From NCBI GenBank assembly GCA_963758525.1, contig CAVWVQ010000002.1:128001-192000 (forward strand): DNA of 64,000 nt, given 5' to 3'. The notes beneath the pieces are model-generated. The model saw nothing but the letters and a program-made list of their open reading frames with translations. It did no database searches and was not told the origin of the DNA. The stretch is from an uncultured Phycisphaerales bacterium. GTDB taxonomy: Bacteria; Planctomycetota; Phycisphaerae; Tepidisphaerales; Tepidisphaeraceae. Each line of letters begins with the position of its first letter. Position 1 is the first letter of the stretch. The position numbers and the translations under genes are program-made. Below, piece after piece: positions 35,032-50,619 of the stretch.

Positions 35032-38000
35032 ATGCCGATTTTTGGCCGATACGAGGTTGTTTCGGAGCTTCACGCGGGAACCCCCGCGTCGGTCTTCCGC
35101 GCCAAGCTGGTGATAGGCCGCCACGCTCAGTTTGTGGTCAAGCTCCTGCAGCATGAAGACCTCGAGTCCCAGCCGCTGCGACAGGATGTCGAGGTGTTTC
35201 TCGAACAGGCACGAGCCCAGAAACAGGCTGGCGCCGATCCGCTGGGCAACTGGGCCTCGATCCACCATTTCGCCAAAACGCCAGGCGGCGCGTTTTACAT
35301 CAGCGATCTGGCCCCCGCGTCGGTCCAGACGCTGATCCAACTCTCGGTTGTTCCGACGTCCCGCGAACTCGCCCGCCTTGTGGCCGGAATCGTCCGCGGG
35401 CTGCGGACCATGCGGGAGGTCCTGAACCGCGCCCACGGCAACCTCAAGCCATCCAACGTGTTGCTCTCCTCCTTCAAGCTCGACGGAGCCAGCGTCAGGC
35501 TCACCGATCCGGCGTCCAATCTCATTGCATCGCAAGTGGGAGAAGCGGGCGACCTGCATGCGCTGGGGAGACTCATTTTCGAATTGATCGAGCATCGCCC
35601 CCCTCTTGGTGACATCGACGCCACCGTGCCTTCCACGCCGCAATGGCGGCAACTGGGGTCGGACGCAGAGGGATGGCGGCAACTGTGCGCGGATCTGCTG
35701 GCGCCTCAGGACGAAAAGAGCGAGGGACATCTCGGCGAGCTTGCCGCGCTCGTCAATAAACTCGGCAGAGCCAAGCCTGGAGGGTCCAAGCGATGGATGC
35801 TGCGAACCGCAACGGTTTTCCTCGTTGCCGGCGGCGTTGCGTCCGCATTCGACTTTCAAGCGCGACGCGAACTCTTCGCGGCCCGCACGCAGTGGATCGA
35901 CCCGCTCGCCGCGGAAATCGCAAAGCCCCCGACGATGAAGCGCTTCCGCGATGATCCGGCGCTGTGCGCCGTGATGCTCGACGTCACCGCGGCAGACGAC
36001 CCGGCCGTTGCCGCCAGCAACCAACTCTCCGACGTTCGGCCGTGGGAGATTCTGCGCGTGCGCTCCAGCCTCGCCGCCGCCGAGCGCGTCGGGACCGACC
36101 TGTCGCCAGCGCACTGGCCGGTCGCGGCGCGCCTCCGCGATGCGCAGCAGACTCTGGAGCGCTCCTCGTGGACGCAACCGGCGCACTTTGTCGCCGCCGC
36201 CTTGGCCCAGCTCAAGCCCGGGCCCGGTCTGGATTCCGCGATCTTGAATGCCATCCAGCTCGATGCCATTCTGCAAAATCAGCTGCCGGCACTGACAAAG
36301 AGCTGGGCTGATGTCGAAGACAATGCTGGCCTGCTGCAAAAGTCGAATGATGTCTACCTCTCTTCGTTCGCGACGATGCTTCGAAAATCGGCGGCGGATG
36401 CGCTGCAGCTCAGTGCAACCGGTTTTGGCGGGACGGATGTGTTGCGCACCAACAACGATCTCATCACTCGCCTTTTGACGGTCGTTCGAGACGGCTTTCC
36501 GAGTGGCATCGACGCGCCCCGATTCTTCGCGGAAGTCACTTCCAGGATTGATTATTCACATCCGCAGATCGCGGATGTGAAGAACTGGCTTCAGCGCGAG
36601 CCGTTTTACGCGAAGCAGGACGCGCAAACTGCGGCCGCCGCGAAGGAACTGCGTATCGCGCTGCGGCGCGCCCTGGATCAAATTGCCAGGCTCCATCCCG
36701 ACGCCGGGGATCGCGCGGAGGTCGAGGCGCAGCGGAAGCTCATCGAGCACGATCTCGATCTCTTTGAGCACCGCCATTTCACCAGCCACGACATGGCCGA
36801 CGGGACGTTCGTCACGCAGCGGACAGGAATCGACTCACAGATCGAATCGCTGATCGGCCACGTGCATCGCGTCGATCCGACGCCCTGGGTTGCTTCGCTC
36901 CCCACTTTGGCCACGCGCTCAGATGTCATCAACGCATACTGGGAGGATTGGAAACACGTGCTGCGCACCAGCACCGGGGAGATGGCGCGGCGAAACGATC
37001 TGTTCCAGACTTTTCGGCGTCAGACCGAGGCGCTGCGAAAAACCCTGACGGGCCTCGATGCGGATTTCCCGGCCGTCCCATCCCAGCTCGCCGGCGCGTT
37101 CGCCGCCAGCGCCGCCAGCCGCCGCGAAAGCGAGCTCGGGAAGCTTCTGGCCGCCATCGATGCGGCAGCCCCGCAGGCGGTTCTCCCCGGGCAGAAATCC
37201 GCCGCCGACAGCTATCGCCAATGGTGCGACAATCTCGTGGCGCTGGGCCACGATTTCCCCATCCGCGCCGAGCTGCTGACATTCGCGGACAACCCCGATG
37301 AGCCGTGGAAGCATACCAAAGCGGACTTCTGGAACGATACTGCCGTTCAGCATCTTGTGGCCGCCGATGTGAAGCGGCTGGCGAATCTCCGCGCCATCAG
37401 CAAGCTGACCCGCCCCGACCTGATCGATGCCGCCACCGAATCAACGGTCCCGGAGATCACGTTCGCAGCCTGGCAACTGCTCGGGGAAGCGTCGATTTCC
37501 CCGGCGTGGCCGTCGCAGGCCGGCGAGCTCGAAACTGAACGAGACATGCGCGACAAACTGGCGAGCATGATCGCCGGCCTCAAGGATCCCAAGGCGAAAG
37601 GACTTGTCGGATCCGCGCTGGCAAACCAGGGAATTGCCCGCTGGCGTCGGTTCGTGCAGTCTGCAACATCCGAGGCAATGCTGCAGCATGCAATCGAACT
37701 GAAGCGATCATTCGGCCCTGACGCAGATCTGTTTTCAGGATTGTCCGCGGCGGGGCGCTTCAACATCGCGCTCTATCTTGGTCGCCAGCAGGTGCATGAT
37801 TCCGACGACCATTCGACCGCCACATTGATCGCGGCGCTCAAGCATTCCGCGCAAGACCTGCCCGATCAGAAGCCGGTGCAGCGACTGCTCGCCCGTTTGG
37901 CGCGGCTCGACACCAAAGAGCGGTTTGCCGACCAGAATCCCGGCGACCGTTTCACGCTGGCGGTTCCCGGCGCGAATCCGCCGTTCGTCTTTCAACGCGT

Positions 38001-38982
38001 CGAGCCGCCAAACGAGCGGCCCTTCTATCTCTGCACCACGGCTGTCTCGTTCGGACAATTCGCCGGCGTGGTCCAGGCGGCAGGCGCCTGGCAGCAGACC
38101 GCGGCGTTTTCGTGGGGCGTCGCGCCGGGCCAACCGGATCTGCGACGCGGTCCGCGCGTCTGGGAGTGGCTGGCAAAGCCGGCGCTGCAGATGACGACCC
38201 CCCTCCTCTGGCTGCATCCCGACGACGACAACGATTACGCGCCCCCGTTTCGCATCGACCGCTTCAACCGCACCGCGCTTTCAGATGATGTCGGCGGCAA
38301 TCCCACGCCCGACCATCCGATGCAGCAAATTCCAGCCGAAGCCGCACTCTATTATTCCGGGCTCTGCGGATGCCGCCTTCCCACCGCCGCCGAGTGGCGC
38401 GACGCATACGCGATCTTCGAGCGTACGGTCCCGCCGGAGCGATGGAATCTTCGCGATCAGACGTGGGACCAGCAGCGCCGATACGCCGCCGACAGTGCCT
38501 CCCCGACCGTGCGCTGGCCCGACGAAGGCATTTTTCGCCCCGAGGAAGTGACCATCGCGGCAGGGGCCGATGCCAAAGCGCGCCCCGAAAACGACGGAAC
38601 CTTGTTCTTCCGTCCCGTCAACGGCCCCGGCGGCGGGACTTTCCACTCTCTGATCGGCAACGTCGCCCAATTGATCTGTGAAGCGCCGGATCAATTTGAA
38701 GACCTCGCGGATAAATCGAGCGCCGCCGCCATTCGCGCCTTCCTCGCGCAATGGCCCAACTCCTTGTTTGTCATCGGCGGCTCCGCCCTGTCACCGCCGG
38801 ACGTTCCGCTGCAGTCGCCGCTCCCCGTCGTGCACACAGACGTCGGATATGCCGACGTCGGCCTTCGCCTCGCCTTCACCGCGCCCGCCCGATCGCTGTC
38901 GGAACGATTGGCATGGATGCTCGCCGGTCAGTCCTATCTCTGGGAAAAATCCTCCCCGACCACCGCGGCGGTGGCGCAGTGA
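35032..38982 (+). CDS. membrane protein: N-terminal pseudokinase, TM, long helical region, C-terminal FGE-sulfatase (SUMF1-like) domain
   Basis: Kinase fold (RYEVV, FVVK, HGNLKPSNVLL, LTDP, DLHALG); FGE motifs PFYL, HPM, RLPTAAEW, GNVAQ, GGS, VGLRLA. Confidence 0.8.
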   Translation: MPIFGRYEVVSELHAGTPASVFRAKLVIGRHAQFVVKLLQHEDLESQPLRQDVEVFLEQARAQKQAGADPLGNWASIHHFAKTPGGAFYISDLAPASVQTLIQLSVVPTSRELARLVAGIVRGLRTMREVLNRAHGNLKPSNVLLSSFKLDGASVRLTDPASNLIASQVGEAGDLHALGRLIFELIEHRPPLGDIDATVPSTPQWRQLGSDAEGWRQLCADLLAPQDEKSEGHLGELAALVNKLGRAKPGGSKRWMLRTATVFLVAGGVASAFDFQARRELFAARTQWIDPLAAEIAKPPTMKRFRDDPALCAVMLDVTAADDPAVAASNQLSDVRPWEILRVRSSLAAAERVGTDLSPAHWPVAARLRDAQQTLERSSWTQPAHFVAAALAQLKPGPGLDSAILNAIQLDAILQNQLPALTKSWADVEDNAGLLQKSNDVYLSSFATMLRKSAADALQLSATGFGGTDVLRTNNDLITRLLTVVRDGFPSGIDAPRFFAEVTSRIDYSHPQIADVKNWLQREPFYAKQDAQTAAAAKELRIALRRALDQIARLHPDAGDRAEVEAQRKLIEHDLDLFEHRHFTSHDMADGTFVTQRTGIDSQIESLIGHVHRVDPTPWVASLPTLATRSDVINAYWEDWKHVLRTSTGEMARRNDLFQTFRRQTEALRKTLTGLDADFPAVPSQLAGAFAASAASRRESELGKLLAAIDAAAPQAVLPGQKSAADSYRQWCDNLVALGHDFPIRAELLTFADNPDEPWKHTKADFWNDTAVQHLVAADVKRLANLRAISKLTRPDLIDAATESTVPEITFAAWQLLGEASISPAWPSQAGELETERDMRDKLASMIAGLKDPKAKGLVGSALANQGIARWRRFVQSATSEAMLQHAIELKRSFGPDADLFSGLSAAGRFNIALYLGRQQVHDSDDHSTATLIAALKHSAQDLPDQKPVQRLLARLARLDTKERFADQNPGDRFTLAVPGANPPFVFQRVEPPNERPFYLCTTAVSFGQFAGVVQAAGAWQQTAAFSWGVAPGQPDLRRGPRVWEWLAKPALQMTTPLLWLHPDDDNDYAPPFRIDRFNRTALSDDVGGNPTPDHPMQQIPAEAALYYSGLCGCRLPTAAEWRDAYAIFERTVPPERWNLRDQTWDQQRRYAADSASPTVRWPDEGIFRPEEVTIAAGADAKARPENDGTLFFRPVNGPGGGTFHSLIGNVAQLICEAPDQFEDLADKSSAAAIRAFLAQWPNSLFVIGGSALSPPDVPLQSPLPVVHTDVGYADVGLRLAFTAPARSLSERLAWMLAGQSYLWEKSSPTTAAVAQ

Positions 38983-40359: not shown

Positions 40360-40893
40360 ATGCAGTCATCCGATCAAATGTTCGTTCGCGTTCTGACCGG
40401 CCAACGGGTTCAGTTGATGGCCTTTATCTGGTCGATCGTGCGCGCGCCCGAACTGGTCGAGGACGTGTATCAGGATGTCTGCCTGGTGGCGATGGAGAAG
40501 CGACCCATCACCGACACCGACGAAGACCTGATGCGCTGGCTCCGCGCGGTTGCGCGAAATAAGGCGCTGCAGGCCCTGGAGCGACGTCAACGAAATCCCC
40601 GGACGATGCAGCCGGAGCTTTTGGAATTGATGGACGAGCAGTGGCAGGAGCACGACGGCTCATCCAACGGGCCGGAGCTTGAGCATCTCCAATCATGCCT
40701 GACAAAGCTCACGCCGTACGCGCAGCAGGTGGTGAATCTGCGCTATGGCCAAGGCCTGACGACCCAGAAGGTGGCCGACGCGCTGCAACGCAAGGTTGAA
40801 GCGGTCTACAAGGCGCTGGTGCGGATTCATAACGCACTGGAGGAATGCGTGCGACGACAGATCGGCGCTCAGGAGCGAGGATCGAATGCCTGA
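40360..40893 (+). CDS. ECF RNA polymerase sigma factor (PVC type)
   Basis: Region 2 (VEDVYQDV...WLRAVARNK) and region 4 (CLTKL...LRYGQGL...VYKALVRI...LEECV). Confidence 0.92.
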   Translation: MQSSDQMFVRVLTGQRVQLMAFIWSIVRAPELVEDVYQDVCLVAMEKRPITDTDEDLMRWLRAVARNKALQALERRQRNPRTMQPELLELMDEQWQEHDGSSNGPELEHLQSCLTKLTPYAQQVVNLRYGQGLTTQKVADALQRKVEAVYKALVRIHNALEECVRRQIGAQERGSNA

Positions 40894-42707
40894 AAACACG
40901 CCCACCGGGGCCGGCATGAGCGACGAAGATTTTGTGCTGCTGGTGCTGCGGCACCTGGACGATTCTCTGGACGAAACCGGCACATCCGCTCTCCACGCGG
41001 AATTGCTGCGGGATGCCGGGCGTCGCCGGGAATTTGTCTCATTGCACCTTCGCTCGGTGAAGCTGGCTGAATTGCTTCGGCCGCAGTTGTTTGACGATCC
41101 GGAGAATTCCGCGCCGGCAACGTTGGACGATGCACAGATCCTTCCCGCGTTGAACGCTCTCGATCGTGGAGACGATGGGAACGCGGAGCGCAAGGACTCG
41201 GCCGGCATGCTCACCGGCCTCACGGCGCCAAGACTACCCGACGATAGCGGTTCGGACTCGACGATAAAGGCGGCAGGGCCGATCGAGGATCAAGATGCGG
41301 CACATGCGTGGCGGTGGCCTTGGAGAGTTACGAAGTGGCGCGCCGGTGCGCTCGGCTGGGCTGCTGCCGCGACAGTGGTGCTGGCGTCCGCGATATCCCT
41401 CGTCGTGATCCTGCATCCGGGCGCCCATCCTGAGCCGCTGGTCATGGGCGCGTCCCTGGATGCAGTATGGGCCGATCCGCGGTCGGTCGCGGCTGCGGGA
41501 AGCCTCGTCGAAACCGGGGTTTCGCAATCGCTCGAATCCGGCTGCGCCGAGCTGACCGCCTCGAACGGCCTGGTGGTTGTCATTCAGGGACCGGCGACGT
41601 TCACCGTTGTAAAGGCCGGGGTTGTCGCTCTCTCATCCGGCAGGCTCACGGCAAGCGTCCCAAAACCAGCGCGCGGATTCACTGTGAACACTCCGGTTGC
41701 ACGCGTCATCGACCTCGGTACCGAGTTCGGCGTGTCCGTCGATCCATCGGGTGAAACGCAGGTCCAGACTTTTCGCGGCACGGTGTCGCTTTCGTCATCC
41801 ACGAGCCCCCCTTCCGTGCCCGCCGGCTTGATTACCGCCGGGGTCGCGCGACGCGTCAGTTCGACGGGTGACATCACGGACGTCCCGGCCAACACCACGG
41901 CGTTTGTACGGCCGCAGCAGTTCGACGACTGGAACGCGATGCCGCACGAAACGTCATTCGACCGGTGGAAGGCCTATAGCGCACGGCTTCGCAGCGATCC
42001 CGATCTGGTCGCGTACTACACATTCGACAGGAGCGAAAGCGATCCGGAGCGCTTGATCAATCTCGCGGCATCCGGGCCAGCCCTCAATGGCTTCTTGAGA
42101 GGAACGGATCGGATCCATGAACGCCCGCTATGGACCACCGGTCGCTGGCCGGAAAAGGGCGCGTTGGCCTTTACTCCCAACTCGCATGAGCGCGTCGAGA
42201 TCGAATCCCCCGTCGGTGGTCCCCTGGACTTCTCGCGCAACGCGCAGACAGCAGTCCCGTTCACCATCTGCGTTTGGCTGCGCAGAACAACAGCACCCGG
42301 TTCACTCGTCGATTTTTCTGAAGGGTGGTGGTTCGGAACAGTTCGGACTGGAACTGATTGCGGACGGATCCATCGAGGGGTCGGTAGGAAAGGTCGGGGT
42401 CGGAGATCGCCGGAGTCCCGCTTCCAAGATCACAAACAAGTGGCAACTGGTGAGCCTGAATTACGACCCGGACCACGGCAACCTCGCGTTGTATGTCAAT
42501 GGCGTTCAGGTGGCCCAAAACCCCAACGCGTCCAGAACGCTACCGCGTTCCGAGTGGCCGCTGGCCATCGGGGACCGCGAATTTCGGGTGAAAATCGCGT
42601 CCTATCTCCCGCCCATGGCGGGGCAGATTGATGAGGTGGCGGTCTTCCGCAGGGCATTTTCAGCCGAGCAGGTGAAGGAGATGTACGAGGCAGAAAAGCC
42701 GGATTAA
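40886..42707 (+). CDS. FecR-like anti-sigma factor with C-terminal LamG (concanavalin-like) domain; frameshift near 42305
   Basis: N-terminal anti-sigma helices, TM, FecR core (GFTVNTPVARVIDLGTEFGVSV), LamG (LVAYYTFD...LYVNG...GQIDEVAVFRRA); overlaps the sigma gene stop. Confidence 0.85.
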
Positions 42708-42786
42708 ACCTTGCTTTTGCTCAAAGGTAGGTATAGTCGAGTTACTCACCGGATCATTATCATTGTGAAGAAATTTCAGAAATTGG

Positions 42787-42814
42787 TGTCCTGATTTTGA
42801 TTTCGGATGGATTA
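42787..42814 (+). promoter_or_regulatory. second copy of the putative ECF promoter
   Basis: TGTCCTGATTT-N11-GGATTA in the AT-rich gap upstream of the PEP-CTERM gene. Confidence 0.75.
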
Positions 42815-42914
42815 ACGATGTGAGGCGACATGACGCAAGTCGTGCCGAGCTGGTTCGAGCCGCGGTCGTCAACGTAAGTATTGAAGAGGGATGGATTTAT
42901 CCGGAGGAGAAGTG

Positions 42915-45900
42915 ATGGCGGTCGATGTGAAGCGATATACTCGCAATGACACAATGAACGTTGGCGCCGCTGAGAAGCGCGCTCGGGCGCGGCATCGGAA
43001 GTTGCGTCTGGCGGCGGCTGCGGCGCTTCCCGTGCTCTCCGGCCTGATGGGTCGCGCCGCGCATGCCGCCAGTGGCACCTGGCTGGATACGGGAGCGACC
43101 AGCGCCAACTGGAGCGATACCACGAACTGGGCCAGCGGGACGATTCCAGGCGCCACCACCGGCACAACCGACACATCGATCGCCACGTTCAATTCGGCCG
43201 TCGGCAGCGAGGGGCTGAGCACGACGCCGATCGTCATTGATTCCGGACGAAACGCAGCTGGCATCAGCTTCGACACAGCCGCCGGCAGCTACTTCATCGG
43301 CGCCACCGGCGGCAATTCCCTCCTGCTGACCAGCGGCGGCTCCATCCAGATTCTTTCCACGCTCACGGCCACCAACGCCGTGGAAACGATCAACGCGCCG
43401 CTCGTCATCGAAGGCGCCGCCGGCACCGACACTTTCGCCAACAACAGCGCCAACGGCACGGGCGCGGCGCGGGCACGCTGGATTTCGGCGGCCAAATCAA
43501 CGGCGGCACGGCGGGCGCAACGGTCTTGACGCTGAGCGGTTCGAACACCAACCTCAACACGATCAGCGGCAATATCATCAACGGCACCGCCACAAGCCTC
43601 GCGATAGCGAAGAGCGGTGCGGGTACTTGGGTTCTTGGCGGCGCGGATAGTTATTCAGGGGCGACCAGCCTCACTGCAGGCACGCTGATTTATTCGGGGA
43701 CCTCCTCGATGAGCAGCAATTCGACGATCACGCAGTCCTCCAACACAACGCTGGAGCTTCTGAGCAACAGCAGTGGCACCTTCACCCCCTCCGCCTCCAC
43801 CGCCAACTCCACCACAACCGGCTATATCCAAACCGGTGGCGGGCCATTTAATTTCATCGCGGGCGATGTGAGCGGCAGCAATACGGGCAACACACTGGTT
43901 CTTGCGAATATGGGCCAGTTTGGTCCAGCCGGCACATCGCCGACTTTCAATTTTGCCGTCAACAACAGCGATACCCTTCAGCTTGGTTCCGGAAGCTCGG
44001 GAACAGGCTTGTTGAACGTTTTCAATAACACGACGATCAACTCCACTGTCGCGGGCGGCACGCTGTCGATTCCGGGCGGGATCACCATCAATTACCCCCA
44101 GGCTTATACGCTTACTTTCGGCGGTGCGGGAAATATCACTTCTGGTCCGATTCTCCGCGATGGCAATATCAACGTAAACGTCACCGTTGCCGGGCCGGGC
44201 ACCTTGACGGTCACCGGAACGAGCAACTTATACAACGGCACAATAACGCTGCAAGGCGGCGGCATCTTGCAGATTGGTAATGGGACCACCGGCAATCTCA
44301 GCAGCACCGCCAACCCCCTCACCTTCAGCGGCACGGGCACGATCAACTTTGACGAGCCGGCCTCCACCAGCCAGTTTATGGCCGCGCTGACCCCCAGCGC
44401 GGGTGCCGACACGGTCGAGTCCACTTATCCCGGCAGCGGCACGAGCACCCTGACGTTCTCCAACGTGGTCGCCCGCACCGCCGGCGCGTCCCTCAACTTT
44501 GTCAGCAACGGGGGCACCAATGGAACCAGCAACAAGATCGTTCTGACGCAATTCGGGGGTTCCGCGCCGACGACGGCGGTGCTCCTCGGCAACGGCTACT
44601 TTTACAACGGCAGCAGTTACGCGGCAGTGAATGCCACCGGCGGCTACGTCCGCGCTTATGGCTCGGGCGACACGGGTTATGCAACCGCCTCCGGTTCCAA
44701 CGGGATCGCCGACTCGTCGACCAGCAACGTCGCCCTCACCGGCAACGTCACGGCTCAGAATAGCGCCTCGGTCAACACCCTCAACATGGGAGCATACACC
44801 CTCGCGCTCGCCTCCAGTCAGACCTTCCAGACCAACGGCATTTTGGTGTCGGGAAATGGCTCGGCCACCATCAGCGGCGGCACCGGGCTGGAAGCGACAA
44901 CCAGCGGTGGCGAATTGGTCATCAATACCAATCTGTCCAGCGACGTTCTGAACATCAGCACGCCAATTCTGAACAACAGCACCAGCTCGCTGACTGTGAC
45001 CGGTCTGGGCACCCTGACGCTTTCCGCCGCCGGCAACAACTACGCGGGAGCGACCACGGTTGACTCGGGTACGCTGAACTTGACCGGAACCCTCACGGGA
45101 GGCACAGTCGTTACAGTCAATGCGGGTACCTTTCAGTGGAATTCGGGCGCCACCCTGTCAACCTCCGCTGTCGCGCTCAATAACGGGGGGACTCTGAGCC
45201 TGTTATCGGATTCAACTGCAACTTTCACTCCGTCGGGCTTTTACCTCAATAGTGGCTCCTACACCATCGCGGTGAACCAAGTGAGCAGCGCGGGGGCTGG
45301 CAAAACGCTCTCAATTGCCAACGAGGCAAGTAACGGCACCACCTCTACTTCTATCAACGTCAGCAGCACCTCCGGAGACACCTTGGCATTTAGTACTGCT
45401 TTCCAACTCAACGGTGTCGGAGCCGGTGCGGGTACTACAACCTTTAACCTCAACAACGCGAACGTGATTCTGAACGGATTGAGCAACACTTCTTCCGCAA
45501 CTGACGGAGGAATGGTCGTTCAGAGTACAACCGGTAACAGCTTGACGATCAACGGCACCCTCTCGACGGCCTCCAACCGGTTCTTCGGCATCACGCTCAA
45601 CAGCGGCACTTTGATTGACAACATCAGCGGGTACGCGGGTAGCAGTACTAATCGCGGATTCTATGCCAATCTCAATGGCGGCACGTGGGACTTAAACAAC
45701 AATCAGGCAGTCGGCGGCGCCACCAATGGGAACAAATTGAATATCGCGGGTGGCACGTTGGACAATACCAGCGGGTTAGCCGTGACGTTGGCGAACAATC
45801 CGCCCATCAACATCAGCGGCAGCTTCGCCTACAGCACCTCTGCCGGCACCAGCGCGAACAACTTGAACCTGGGCACGGGTGCGGTGGCATTGACCGCCAC

Positions 45901-46816
45901 TCCAACGATCACCACGGCTGGGGCTGGCACCTTGACCCTGGGCGGCGTCGTCAGTGGCAGCTATGGCCTGAACTTGACTGGCACGGGCGTGCTGGCGCTT
46001 ACCGGCGCAAATAGTTACTCGGGTGCGACCACCATCGCGGGCGGTACACTGCGAGTGAACAATACCAGCGGCTCATCTGGCACGGGCACCGGTGCTGTGA
46101 CGGTCAACGGGGGAATTCTCGGCGGCAGCGGCTTCATCGGCACGTCGGGTTCTTCCAACGGGGCGATCACCGTCAACAACGGCGGACTGATCGCCGCCGG
46201 CGCCAGCAGCTCCTCCACCGCCACCGGCACGCTGACCAGCCTGAGCACCAGCGGTGTCACGCTCAATGCCGGGTCCGGTTACAACTGGAAGATTCAGAAC
46301 GCCAGCGGCACGGCTGGTGGCACCGGGTGGGACCAAGTCGCTACCCAGGGTATTGCCTTCGGCACCGGTACGGCGCTGACATCCGCCAGCCCCTTTACGG
46401 TTTATATCCAGGGCAATCCCACGAACCTGGCTCCGGGGAGCACGGTCTTCGTGATTGCCACCGATCCCGTCGGCAACATCCCGATCAATGGGACGACTTA
46501 CTCGACGGCTTCGGCCCCCGTGGCGTTGACCGGCGCTGCGACCCCCGTGGCTCTTTCCAATCTGTTTGTCCTCAACACCTCCGGTTTCTCCGACACCAAC
46601 AGCCCGCGGGTTGGAGGAAGTTCATCGTTCACATTGGAACTCGTGACGGACAATTCTGGGGGACAGGACTTGGCGCTCGCTTACAACGCCGCGCCCGAGC
46701 CGGGCACGGCGATGCTGATGCTCGGCGGGGCGCTGCCCATGCTCATGGGTCGTCGCCGACGTCGGAACATATCCGGGAAGCCCGCTGCGATTCGCGACGA
46801 CTCGCTCCTTGCTTGA
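42915..46816 (+). CDS. large PEP-CTERM surface protein with autotransporter-associated beta-strand repeats; frameshift near 43467
   Basis: Signal peptide; G/T/S/N-rich repeats (KSGAGTWVLGGADSYSGAT, GTLTLSAAGNNYAGATTV, GVLALTGANSYSGATTI); C-terminal APEPGTAMLMLGGALPMLMGRRRRR. Confidence 0.88.
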
Positions 46817-47055
46817 CAGGTGAATTCAGAACCTGTTGAGCCGCGGTTTGACAACCCACGCCGAGTCTGAGGTACACCGAAGCCTCGGATCGAACGTCGG
46901 GCAACCCATTGAAGCATGCGATCACCCAGCAGGCGGTGATGCGGACGACGCATCGTCCAGTTGGAGGACACGCTGGGCCAGCGAACGGAATGCGTAAACG
47001 GCAGTTAGCTCAAGTCTAAAGGGCGAATGGTATTCGCGTTCCTCGAGTAGATACA

Positions 47056-48126
47056 ATGATGCATATGCGAAACCACAATTCGATGCATCGGACTGGGGGT
47101 TTTACCCTTGTCGAACTGCTGGTCGTCATCGGGATCATCGCCATTTTGGTTGCGCTGTTGCTTCCCGCCCTGGCCGGGGCCCGGGAACAGGCAAAGTACG
47201 TGCGGTGGCAGGCGTTCAGCCGCGACACGTCCATGGACCCGAACATCGCGGTCTACTTCAACCTGCAAAACGATCGCGGCGCCAACACCCTGACCAATAT
47301 GGCGGTAAACAACGCCGATGATCCCAGCTTCGTCCCGTCGCAATGCAATGCGCAGGCCCTGGATTGGGCGAATACAGCGGGTTTTCTACCGCTGGCGAAT
47401 CAGCCGTATGCACCGTCGCAGATCCAGGCGATGTGGGCAAGCGATGGGCGATTTAAGAACAAGCCGGCTTTGACCCTGTCAACCACGACGACACCGAACG
47501 CAATGTTTTACATCGGCCCCTTCGGCCGGGCCAACGGACGACTCGCCAAGCTGCTGATGAAGTCACAGCAGATCACGATCGTGTTCTGGGCCTATCTGCC
47601 GCCGTCGGCGCAGAGCGCCAGTACCAAGCAAACGTTCCTGAGGTGGGCCGGAACAAACCAGAACTATCGCGTCATGTCAATCGACTTCCCCTGGGGCGGC
47701 GATGTCCAGTGGCAGAACGGCATCGGAACTTCCGGTGCCTTTGGGGCGGGCGCGGGTGTGCCGTATTCCTCGACCGTTGCCAACCAATGGAACCTTTGGT
47801 GTTTCACCTGTGACCGGAATACCGGTCTCATGAAGGTCTACCTGAACGCGCAGTTGGTCCCGCTCGCGAACGATGTCAATACCGTGCAGTGCGGTCGGTT
47901 CGTCGTTTTCGATGAAAATGCGCCCTACTACAAAGATACCGGCAACTTCATGTTCGGGAATACACCGGGGGGCCCTGAGGATACGATCGCCGTCGATGAA
48001 CTGGCAGTGTTCGATGCGGATCTATCACCGCAGGACGTCCAGATCGTCGCCGGAAACCCGGTCACGGTTCCCGGAGTGCCCGCGGTGCGGTTCCTGCAGA
48101 TGTACGACATGGGGAACCCCAATTAG
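47056..48126 (+). CDS. prepilin-type N-terminal cleavage/methylation protein with LamG-like C-terminal domain
   Basis: [27 protein letters not shown]-terminal QWNLWCFT...KVYLN...[12 protein letters not shown]. Confidence 0.85.
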
Positions 48127-48163: not shown

Positions 48164-48649
48164 ATGGGTGTTCGAGAAACACTAAACCGGCAATCCAAGG
48201 CGATTGGAATTGCGTCGGCGATGATGATCGCTCTCTGCCTGGCGTTCGCCGTGACGCAGTACAAGCATGGCGGACGTCCGTCGCTCCCGCATTTCGCTGA
48301 CAAGGCCTATTACACGACTGATGATGGCGCGACATTCTTTACGGACTCTGTCAATCTGATCGCCCCTTTTGACCATCTGGTGCGCCAAGCCGTGCGGGCG
48401 CATATGTTCACGTGTGATTCGGGCAAACACCGGTGGATCGGGTATCTCGAAAAATATTCGGATGCGGACCTGAAGCGGTTTGACCCCTCCAATTCCCAGA
48501 TGGATTTCTCCCCGCCGATTCCGCTCGTGCGGCGGCCAGGTGCGGGGGACTGGGTGCCAGAATCCTCCAAGGACGCGATGTTCATCATGGATCCAAAGTG
48601 CCCTGACGGAGAGGGTGCCGGGCCCCCCCAGCCGGTGTTGCCTGATTGA
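48164..48649 (+). CDS. small membrane-anchored hypothetical protein, paralog of 50026-50505
   Basis: GGAG RBS, N-terminal TM; AYYTTDDG...PFDH...GYL...VRRPG...W-x-P...PDG...VLP. Confidence 0.75.
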   Translation: MGVRETLNRQSKAIGIASAMMIALCLAFAVTQYKHGGRPSLPHFADKAYYTTDDGATFFTDSVNLIAPFDHLVRQAVRAHMFTCDSGKHRWIGYLEKYSDADLKRFDPSNSQMDFSPPIPLVRRPGAGDWVPESSKDAMFIMDPKCPDGEGAGPPQPVLPD

Positions 48650-48799: not shown

Positions 48800-48837
48800 T
48801 GACGCAAAATCGCATGGATTCTGCGATTTAATGCGGT
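48800..48837. promoter_or_regulatory. conserved dyad motif, copy 1
   Basis: TGACGCAAAATCGCATG is an exact match to 50581-50597; internal inverted repeat AAATCGCA/TGCGATTT. Confidence 0.55.
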
Positions 48838-48948: not shown

Positions 48949-49991
48949 ATGTCCACGTCTCATCAGCGGAAACGTCCGGCATTCTCGCTTGTAGAACTGC
49001 TTGTGGTCATTGGCATCATTGCGGTGCTTATTGCGCTGTTGCTGCCCTCGCTGGGCCGCGCGCGGTATGAGGCGCGTCGGGTCGCGTGCATGAGCAATCT
49101 TCGCCAGATCGGCCAGGCATTCATGATGTATGCGAGCGAAAATAAAGGTGCATTCCCCCGCACCTATTATTTGACGAACTTCACCTGGACGCACTCGCCC
49201 GACAGCTTTTGCGGGCTGCGCGGTTCTCGAACCCCACGTCTGCCGCTCCGTTTCTGAATCCTTCGGTGTGGAATTATGACACCGTGCTGCCGCCGTGGAA
49301 CACCGACCATCGTCCCGGCGACAACGACGTCACCGCGGCGTTGTTCCTGCTGGTGCGGCAATATGGATTGCCGGCGCAGCTCTTTGTTTGTCCCGGGCGC
49401 GACGATCCATTTTATCCCGACGATTTCAAAACTCTGGGCGTGGCTGGTGCGTCGACCGACCCGATGAAGCGCTCGAACTTCTCATCGCCTTACAACCTCG
49501 GGTATAGCATGCATGTTCCTTATCCGCCGCCCAATGCGTTTGCCCTTGGGTTTCGCTGGGGCCTGACCGCCAAACCTGGCTTCGCAATTCTGGCGGATCT
49601 GAATCCGGGCGAGCGATTCGTCGACAGTTGCGTGGTCACCCACAGCAACTTTTACATATTAGACGGCCCGACAACGCCCACCGACCCGCCGGATTTGCAA
49701 AGAATGGCCAATAGCAGAAATCACGAAAAACGCGGTCAGAACGTTCTATATGCCGATGGGCATTGCGAGTGGTCCCCGACGGCGTTCGCCGGATACAACC
49801 AGGATAATATTTATACATTGGCCGGACCGATGGGTGTGACGAGTGGGAAGACTAATCAATGGACGACCGGCGCACAGTGCTTTTACCTCGGTGCCTTCTT
49901 CATCAATAACCCCGACGACAGCATCATGCAGCCCAACGAGGGAGCTACTGTTTCCAGTGTGATGAGTGCCAGCGGATTGGGCATCAACTGA
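48949..49991 (+). CDS. prepilin-type / DUF1559-like protein with H-X9-DG motif; frameshift near 49222
   Basis: [25 protein letters not shown]-terminal NHEKRGQNVLYADGH. Confidence 0.88.
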
Positions 49992-50025: not shown

Positions 50026-50505
50026 ATGAACTTCCGTGAATTGGTAAACCGTCGCCCGAAGCTTGCAGCGGCAAGCATCATCGCGATCGCTGTTCTTGCC
50101 ATCGGCTTCTCTTTCCAGAGCAGCCGCGGCCCCAAGTTGTCCGGGCCGATCACGCAGGCGTTCTTCAGTGATGACGATGGCAAGAGCTGGTTCGCCGAAG
50201 ATATAAACAAGCCGTTTCCATTCGATCACAACGGACGGCAGGCATACCGGGCATACGTTTTTCGCTGCCAATCCGGCGATCCGTTTGTTGGTTACCTGGC
50301 AAGCTTCAGCGATGCCGGCGCGCCGAAAGGTACGACGGCTGCCCCAACCCGCAGCGAACAATTTGGCCCGCAGAAGATCCCAGTCATGCAGGTGAAGAAA
50401 CCGGGAGAGTCTAATTGGATTCCCATAGATAGCCCCCAGGGGGAGCTCATCATTGACGTGAAGGGCCCCGACGGATCGAGGCCGCTGGCGGTCTTGCCCG
50501 AGTAA
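50026..50505 (+). CDS. small membrane-anchored hypothetical protein, paralog of 48164-48649
   Basis: N-terminal TM; AFFSDDDG...PFDH...GYL...VKKPG...W-x-P...PDG...VLP. Confidence 0.75.
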   Translation: MNFRELVNRRPKLAAASIIAIAVLAIGFSFQSSRGPKLSGPITQAFFSDDDGKSWFAEDINKPFPFDHNGRQAYRAYVFRCQSGDPFVGYLASFSDAGAPKGTTAAPTRSEQFGPQKIPVMQVKKPGESNWIPIDSPQGELIIDVKGPDGSRPLAVLPE

Positions 50506-50580: not shown

Positions 50581-50619
50581 TGACGCAAAATCGCATGAAC
50601 GGCTACGCTATTTTGCGGT
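50581..50619. promoter_or_regulatory. conserved dyad motif, copy 2
   Basis: TGACGCAAAATCGCATG...GCTATTTTGCGGT; CGCAAAATCGC/GCTATTTTGCG is an inverted repeat with 1 mismatch. Confidence 0.55.

What the first reader, a model, noticed from the sequence alone, without database searches (positions are those of the whole stretch)
41963..48126. Anti-sigma sensor and pilin-like protein share one LamG-type domain: possible pilin-coupled cell-surface signalling system
Seen: the C-terminal domain of the FecR-like anti-sigma and the body of the first prepilin protein align motif by motif. The pairs are RWKAYSARLRSDPDLVAYYTF / [26 protein letters not shown] / LTNMA; W-TTGRWPEKGALAF / [21 protein letters not shown] / ITIVFW; KWQLVSLNYD..GNLALYVNG / [31 protein letters not shown] / [20 protein letters not shown] / QMYDMGNP. 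The match includes a RW-x-A-[YF]-S-x5-DP lead-in that is not part of the generic LamG core as I know it. Established: in FecI/FecR/FecA-type signalling the anti-sigma periplasmic region contains an STN-fold subdomain like the signalling domain of its TonB-dependent transducer. Inference: no TonB-dependent receptor is encoded here. A pilin-like protein carrying the cognate domain may take that role, through homotypic LamG contacts or a shared ligand, linking a pilus/pseudopilus-like apparatus to ECF activation.
Basis: partly seen in the sequence, partly recalled or inferred. Interest (0 to 1): 0.85.

Follow-up and report, generated by a model that had tools for sequence, protein, structure and literature searches.

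The report
Sugar-sensor cassette with a lectin pilin
A known type of planctomycete sensor switch (ECF46-like sigma factor plus a membrane anti-sigma with a lectin-fold tip) sits beside a pilin-like gene carrying a distant relative of the same domain; the two are homologous, but they likely are a sugar sensor and one of the surface proteins it controls, not a matched signalling pair.

Summary
The homology is real. The two LamG domains align end to end (19% identity; profile-profile probability 99.7, E 5e-26) and share a lead-in helix and GR-x3-K-x-AL motif absent from most other LamG domains.

The cognate-pair idea is not supported. This genome has 11 paralogous sigma/FecR cassettes: 4 anti-sigmas and 4 pilins carry this domain, and only this locus has both. 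Of 74 FecR-LamG loci surveyed, 1 had a pilin-LamG; 21 further loci had none. The window's anti-sigma ranks its neighbour pilin 37th of 90 domains, and the pilin's sandwich core is closer to LamG domains of other secreted proteins. The sigma/anti-sigma pair fits ECF46, already proposed to sense carbohydrates. The pilin resembles lectin-bearing modular pilins such as S. sanguinis PilC.

What remains interesting: all 11 cassettes have a prepilin gene nearby, with no STN-type transducer in the genome, and one other lineage has a closely matched sensor/pilin LamG pair. Binding could not be modelled.

The parts
40360..40893 (+). ECF sigma factor, Rhodopirellula/Verrucomicrobium family (ECF46-like)
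   Evidence: TIGR02989 125.4 bits, over cut-off; one of 11 such genes over cut-off in the genome, each beside a FecR gene
40886..42707 (+). FecR-like anti-sigma: N-terminal cytoplasmic part, one hydrophobic segment (about residues 155-177), FecR domain, C-terminal LamG domain with lead-in helix from 41963; frameshift near 42279-42299, probably an assembly error
   Evidence: PF04773 and PF13385 in two frames; intact paralogs; a contig with two extra letters behind 42279
42891..46816 (+). Large secreted protein with autotransporter-type beta repeats and a PEP-CTERM tail; frameshift near 43468-43529
   Evidence: PF12951, TIGR02601, TIGR02595; a contig with one extra letter behind 43468
47056..48126 (+). 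Prepilin with class III signal (G|FTLVE, F at 47101); one helix (residues 18-58) runs straight into a LamG/ConA-like domain
   Evidence: PF07963 + PF13385; AlphaFold2 model pLDDT 86.4, pTM 0.86; fold matches
48164..48649 (+). Small protein with N-terminal hydrophobic segment, no known family; pilin-partner gene
   Evidence: no Pfam or NCBIfam hit; 24 of 29 genome matches begin under 2 kb after a prepilin start
48949..49991 (+). Second prepilin, DUF1559 type, no LamG; frameshift near 49210-49257
   Evidence: PF07963 + PF07596; intact paralog in L001
50026..50505 (+). Second pilin-partner gene
   Evidence: partner profile 140 bits

Best explanation
This is one of 11 paralogous ECF46-like cassettes in the genome, in which the anti-sigma likely senses a periplasmic glycan through its own lectin-fold tip and the pilin is likely a regulated surface lectin rather than its signalling partner. 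Shown: the gene order sigma, FecR anti-sigma, PEP-CTERM protein, prepilin, partner; interchangeable C-terminal domains on the anti-sigmas (LamG in 4, NPCBM-like or other in 7); interchangeable heads on the pilins (LamG in 4, mostly DUF1559-type otherwise); the same lead-in LamG module also on a Ser/Thr kinase and on secreted proteins. Predicted: the module's N-terminal helix continues the pilin's long helix in register, which would explain how it was grafted onto a pilin without a linker. Inferred: ligand binding releases the sigma factor, which transcribes the neighbouring PEP-CTERM, pilin and partner genes; the pilin is processed by prepilin peptidase and displays its lectin head in the periplasm or on a type IV filament. 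The shared domain reflects old module shuffling among envelope genes, not pairing.
For: ECF46 is described with one-helix FecR-like anti-sigmas bearing Laminin_G_3, proposed to sense carbohydrates (PMC7826278 supplement). 11 of 11 FecR genes have a TIGR02989 sigma beside them and a prepilin within 10 kb; 18 of 65 prepilins lie in 3.4% of the genome. Only 1 of 4 FecR-LamG loci has a pilin-LamG, while 2 of 7 other FecR loci do. Survey: 74 of 78 loci are FecR-LamG, 19 have a prepilin, 1 a pilin-LamG; only 3 of 48 Verrucomicrobiota loci have any prepilin. 0 of 21 further loci have one. In 141 genomes of the order, pilin-LamG is in 3, anti-sigma-type LamG in 8, both only here. Pilin core profile: best non-pilin scores 70-82 bits on other secreted LamG domains, against 34 for the window anti-sigma and 44.5 for the best of 98 FecR domains. 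Fold neighbours include the arabinan-binding domain of AbnA (5hon, Z 18.1) and PilC (7oa7, Z 12.7). Prepilin peptidase and 4 secretins are present.
Against: No ligand is known for either domain, and a ConA-like fold also serves protein binding. No promoter or expression data show that the sigma factor controls the pilin. The window's arrangement recurs intact in L129. A second lineage (L047, L051) has sensor and pilin domains 35% identical, with the in-cassette or orthologous sensors ranked 1st and 2nd of 98. Of 12 pilin-LamG loci with readable context, 4 have a same-subfamily anti-sigma, though these are two cassette lineages. The 44 control domains were partly chosen by similarity to the pilin, so they are a stiff control, not a random one.
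Confidence: 0.68

Rival explanations
1. One reading: the pilin's LamG binds the anti-sigma's LamG and replaces the TonB-dependent transducer.
For: Same subfamily; both heads would face the periplasm before pilus assembly (established pilin biology); no STN domain in the genome; arrangement repeated in L129, L047 and L051; the PupR STN / PupB NTSD precedent (PMC7186176).
Against: 73 of 74 and 21 of 21 FecR-LamG loci lack a pilin-LamG; 8 of 12 pilin-LamG loci lack the sensor. Ranks are 37 of 90 and 7 of 98 for the window pair, and the clades are separate. In PupR both subdomains, not the STN alone, form the binding site.
Confidence: 0.07
2. Prepilin-like proteins of any head type (mostly DUF1559), with their small partner, are the upstream input of these sigma/FecR switches in Phycisphaerae, acting on the FecR subdomain; the LamG match is incidental.
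For: 11 of 11 FecR loci have a prepilin within 10 kb; 16 of 25 Planctomycetota loci in the survey do; the 7 TonB-dependent barrels are unlinked and no STN was found.
Against: Only 3 of 48 Verrucomicrobiota FecR-LamG loci have a prepilin; 47 of 65 prepilins lie away from FecR genes; linkage is equally expected of target genes.
Confidence: 0.12
3. Sensor and pilin bind the same glycan independently, so the cell senses what the pilin then captures.
For: Fits the L047/L051 pair, whose central strands are closely alike (35% identity, E 4e-45; ranks 1-2 of 98).
Against: In the window pair the core is the least alike part. Sensors from other families without pilin-LamG score nearly as high on the L047 pilin (134 and 129 against 141 bits). 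The L042 pilins of the same subtype sit beside a non-LamG anti-sigma.
Confidence: 0.13

Closest known systems
ECF46 sigma / anti-sigma group (Casas-Pastor et al. 2021, PMC7826278 supplement)
   Same: PVC-phylum ECF with a one-helix FecR-like anti-sigma at +1 bearing Laminin_G_3; proposed carbohydrate sensing
   Different: The passage read lists rhamnosidase and sulfatase neighbours; 'DUF1559' and 'N-terminal methylation' were not found in the stored, cut file. Here PEP-CTERM, prepilin and partner genes follow
FecI/FecR/FecA and PupI/PupR/PupB cell-surface signalling (PMC7186176)
   Same: ECF sigma, one-helix anti-sigma, FecR domain
   Different: No STN/FecR_C subdomain and no STN-bearing transducer; a lectin-fold domain takes the C-terminal place
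Modular lectin pilin PilC of Streptococcus sanguinis (PMC9934059; modular pilins PMC8179133)
   Same: Class III signal peptide plus ConA-like domain; structural match Z 12.7, rmsd 3.4, 200 aligned; PilC is stabilised by a small partner pilin
   Different: PilC has a pilin module and an Ig domain before the lectin; here the lectin domain is predicted to replace the pilin head directly; the small neighbour here is not a pilin
RsgI anti-sigma factors of cellulolytic clostridia (abstract starts of PMC6852018, PMC10328401)
   Same: Paralogous anti-sigmas acting as polysaccharide sensors with their own binding modules
   Different: Sigma-I/RsgI families, monoderm envelope, not FecR-like
Planctomycete N_methyl + SBP_bac_10 (DUF1559) proteins (PMC8567305)
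   Same: Heavily expanded prepilin-like family; the second pilin here is one
   Different: The first pilin has LamG in place of DUF1559

Membership tests
ECF46 | ECF sigma of the PVC type | tested here: met
   TIGR02989 over cut-off
ECF46 | Anti-sigma at +1 with one membrane helix, FecR and Laminin_G_3 | tested here: met
   the helix is read from the sequence, no predictor run
ECF46 | Assignment by the ECF46 group HMM or ECF tree | not testable with these tools
   group models not available
Canonical FecIRA-type cell-surface signalling | C-terminal STN/FecR_C subdomain in the anti-sigma | tested here: not met
   no PF16344 or PF07660 match in the genome, 91% complete; none on intact paralogs
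Canonical FecIRA-type cell-surface signalling | Linked TonB-dependent transducer with N-terminal STN | tested here: not met
   7 barrels, none near a FecR gene (nearest about 38 kb), no STN
Modular type IV pilin | Class III signal peptide with G|F and E5, long N-terminal helix | tested here: met
   PF07963, TIGR02532; helix 18-58
Modular type IV pilin | Separate pilin beta-sheet module before the grafted domain | tested here: not met
   the model runs from the helix directly into the LamG sandwich
Modular type IV pilin | Processing and incorporation into a filament | not testable with these tools
   peptidase and secretin genes present; assembly untested
LamG/ConA-like lectin | ConA-like beta-sandwich fold | tested here: met
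   PF13385; Z 18.1, rmsd 2.8, 202 aligned to 5hon
LamG/ConA-like lectin | Carbohydrate binding | not testable with these tools
   needs a binding assay
   exception L047/L051

The most novel reading that the evidence does not exclude
In Phycisphaerae, prepilin-like proteins and their unnamed membrane partner stand where TonB-dependent transducers stand in other phyla: they capture glycans on a type IV filament and feed the signal to ECF46-type anti-sigmas. In some cassettes the sensor's own lectin domain was copied onto the pilin, so both read one ligand or touch each other.
Probability: 0.17. Interest if true: 0.85.

Novelty: new variant of a known kind. Interest (0 to 1): 0.4.

Why it matters
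Planctomycetes degrade polysaccharides, and their large prepilin-like families have no assigned role. These cassettes give a concrete, testable unit: a lectin-tipped sensor, a PEP-CTERM surface protein, a pilin with a swappable head and an unnamed partner, repeated 11 times in one genome. The helix-capped LamG module moving between anti-sigmas, a kinase and pilins is a modest new example of how pilins gain binding heads. A pilin acting as signal transducer would be a new mode of cell-surface signalling, but the comparative evidence does not favour it.

Tried and rejected
Complex prediction of the intact L129 pair was not available; no model was made. The all-protein profile search never ran, so the architecture survey is not exhaustive. 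A first genome-collection scan with the four in-genome pilin domains found nothing. A four-sequence fold was poor (pLDDT 57.9) and was replaced. An AU test did not reject a single origin of all pilin-LamG domains (p 0.158), so two independent grafts are not claimed. Both trees are quick trees on thinned sets: 75 of 134 lead-in domains and 39 rows. I looked by eye for a shared promoter upstream of cassette genes in four loci and saw none. No RNA holder was listed. Two ECF papers on planctomycetes were not held, so their text was not seen. The idea that P0002 and P0136 form one cassette because of equal contig length was dropped, as P0136 groups with L001.

Full report
Anatomy. The window lies on contig C2 of a 6.47 Mb genome, 91% complete. 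Relatives carrying the domain are titled Planctomycetota and Verrucomicrobiota, and one prepilin hit is named Tepidisphaeraceae; placement in Phycisphaerae is my inference. On the + strand lie an ECF sigma (40360-40893, TIGR02989), a FecR-like anti-sigma (40886-42707), a beta-repeat PEP-CTERM protein (42891-46816), a prepilin with LamG (47056-48126), a small partner gene, a DUF1559 prepilin and a second partner. Three of these genes are frameshifted. Contigs of one public run show extra letters at two of the breaks, and paralogs are intact, so assembly error is likely. For comparisons I read the anti-sigma with X at 42299, about six codons from the place the contig indicates.

The observation. 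The two domains share 19% identity, well above 1000 shuffles, and their family profiles align with probability 99.7. A profile of 33 pilin domains ranks all four FecR-LamG anti-sigmas of the genome above its other LamG domains per domain (47, 42, 30+16 and 25+23 bits against 13 or less), but the window's own anti-sigma is not the best. Splitting that profile shows where the likeness lies. The first 95 residues (lead-in helix to GR-x3-K-x-AL) pick out FecR-linked domains (median 15.4 against 0.15 bits). The sandwich core scores higher on LamG domains of other secreted and PEP-CTERM proteins (up to 82 bits) than on any of 98 anti-sigma domains (max 44.5; window 34.2). The controls were partly selected by similarity to the pilin.

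What the domain is. A scan of the genome collection with a mixed alignment kept the best 80 of 222 confirmed matches, 78 loci. 74 are FecR-LamG genes, 66 with a sigma in the DNA held; the other four are a pilin pair, a Ser/Thr kinase, a secreted-looking 717-residue protein and a stand-alone domain (the last three read from sequence). So this is mainly the sensor tip of PVC anti-sigmas, occasionally found on other envelope proteins. The supplement of PMC7826278 (passages read, file cut when stored) describes ECF46 with exactly this anti-sigma and proposes carbohydrate sensing. An AlphaFold2 model of the pilin (pLDDT 86.4) has one helix from residue 18 to 58, so the lead-in is the end of the pilin's long helix, followed directly by a ConA-like sandwich. 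Fold neighbours are generic ConA-like domains: neurotoxin binding-domain N-halves (Z up to 19.3), AbnA domain 4 (Z 18.1), CBM40, pentraxins and PilC (Z 12.7). A shared fold shows no function.

Are they a pair? The genome has 11 FecR genes, each beside one of 11 TIGR02989 sigmas. Four carry LamG; the others carry NPCBM-like or unassigned domains. Four prepilins carry the LamG head. Only the window has both; two pilin-LamG genes follow NPCBM-like anti-sigmas and one stands alone. In the survey 1 of 74 FecR-LamG loci has a pilin-LamG (1 of 48 with at least 8 kb downstream). Of 23 more loci, 2 duplicates of earlier ones were dropped, and 0 of 21 have one. In 141 genomes of the order the pilin type was found in 3 and the anti-sigma type in 8 (5 checked as FecR-LamG, 2 partial matches unchecked), overlapping only here; many genomes are incomplete and at most 16-19 candidates were scored in each. 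Of 15 pilin-LamG loci seen (L053 and L134 dropped as duplicates), 3 end under 1.1 kb upstream and were set aside; of 12, 4 have a same-subfamily anti-sigma, 3 another FecR and 5 none in the DNA held. The window anti-sigma ranks its pilin 37th of 90, and the pilin ranks it 7th of 98 at 15.5 bits. Trees put the window-type pilins in their own clade (100) apart from the window-type anti-sigmas (99).

Results against my reading. The cassette recurs intact in L129. In L047 and L051, one orthologous cassette in another family, pilin and sensor domains are 35% identical and rank each other's sensors 1st and 2nd of 98, though sensors from unrelated loci come close. And prepilins of any kind are strongly tied to these switches: 11 of 11 loci here, 16 of 25 Planctomycetota loci, but 3 of 48 Verrucomicrobiota loci. 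The genome has 7 unlinked TonB-dependent barrels and no STN or FecR_C match, so the canonical input is indeed missing.

Mechanism. Most likely the anti-sigma binds a periplasmic glycan with its own tip and releases the sigma (inferred; as proposed for ECF46, and as described for RsgI sensors in abstract starts seen). The sigma would then switch on the neighbouring PEP-CTERM, pilin and partner genes (inferred from linkage only). The pilin would be a lectin-headed modular pilin like PilC (PMC9934059 and PMC8179133, passages). The head and the sensor tip are each swapped freely among paralogs (shown), which explains the shared domain without contact.

Literature and novelty. Searches for FecR + laminin G + ECF + Planctomycetes, for DUF1559 + PEP-CTERM, and for related term sets returned no paper on this cassette or on the shared subfamily; the library lacks most subscription papers and two key planctomycete ECF papers. 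PMC8567305 (passages) documents the expanded prepilin/DUF1559 family; PMC7186176 (passages) confirms the STN precedent; PMC2754498 (passages) added nothing on linkage. Verdict: real homology, known parts, an apparently undescribed combination; the matched-pair signalling model is unlikely. Interest 0.4.

Noticed in passing
window 48164-48649 and 50026-50505; 29 matches in the genome: An unnamed family of about 160-residue proteins with an N-terminal hydrophobic segment; 24 of 29 matches begin under 2 kb after a prepilin start. No Pfam or NCBIfam hit; Atlas look-alikes are hypothetical Planctomycetota clusters. A likely pilin chaperone or assembly partner.
   Followed up: partly
window 48800-48816 and 50581-50597: An exact 17-base intergenic repeat upstream of the DUF1559 pilin and of the oxidoreductase gene; one two-mismatch copy lies in the paralogous cassette L001, and none elsewhere in the genome. 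It could be an operator or a relic of duplication.
   Followed up: partly
L047:4198-10588 and L051:4325-10717: Cassette sigma, FecR-LamG, PEP-CTERM (LamG + PA14), DUF1559 pilin, pilin-LamG in which sensor and pilin domains are closely alike; the best place to test a shared ligand. L051 is a complete chromosome.
   Followed up: partly
L058:8285-10765: The same helix-capped LamG domain at the C-terminus of a membrane Ser/Thr kinase, close to the L047 subtype.
   Followed up: partly
L043:9206-10015 and L044:9544-10446: A further pilin-LamG type without the lead-in helix, whose core resembles the window pilin's core more than anti-sigma domains do.
   Followed up: partly
L004:6426-9182 and L001:13415-16212: Transposase-like insertions interrupt or precede pilin genes in two paralogous cassettes.
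   Followed up: no
G000:C3:1010604-1031705: A 7034-codon open frame with three LamG repeats, two nearly identical in score and size.
   Followed up: no
window 35032-38982: A 1316-residue ORF with a kinase-like N-terminus (by eye) and a C-terminal FGE-sulfatase-like domain upstream of the cassette.
   Followed up: no
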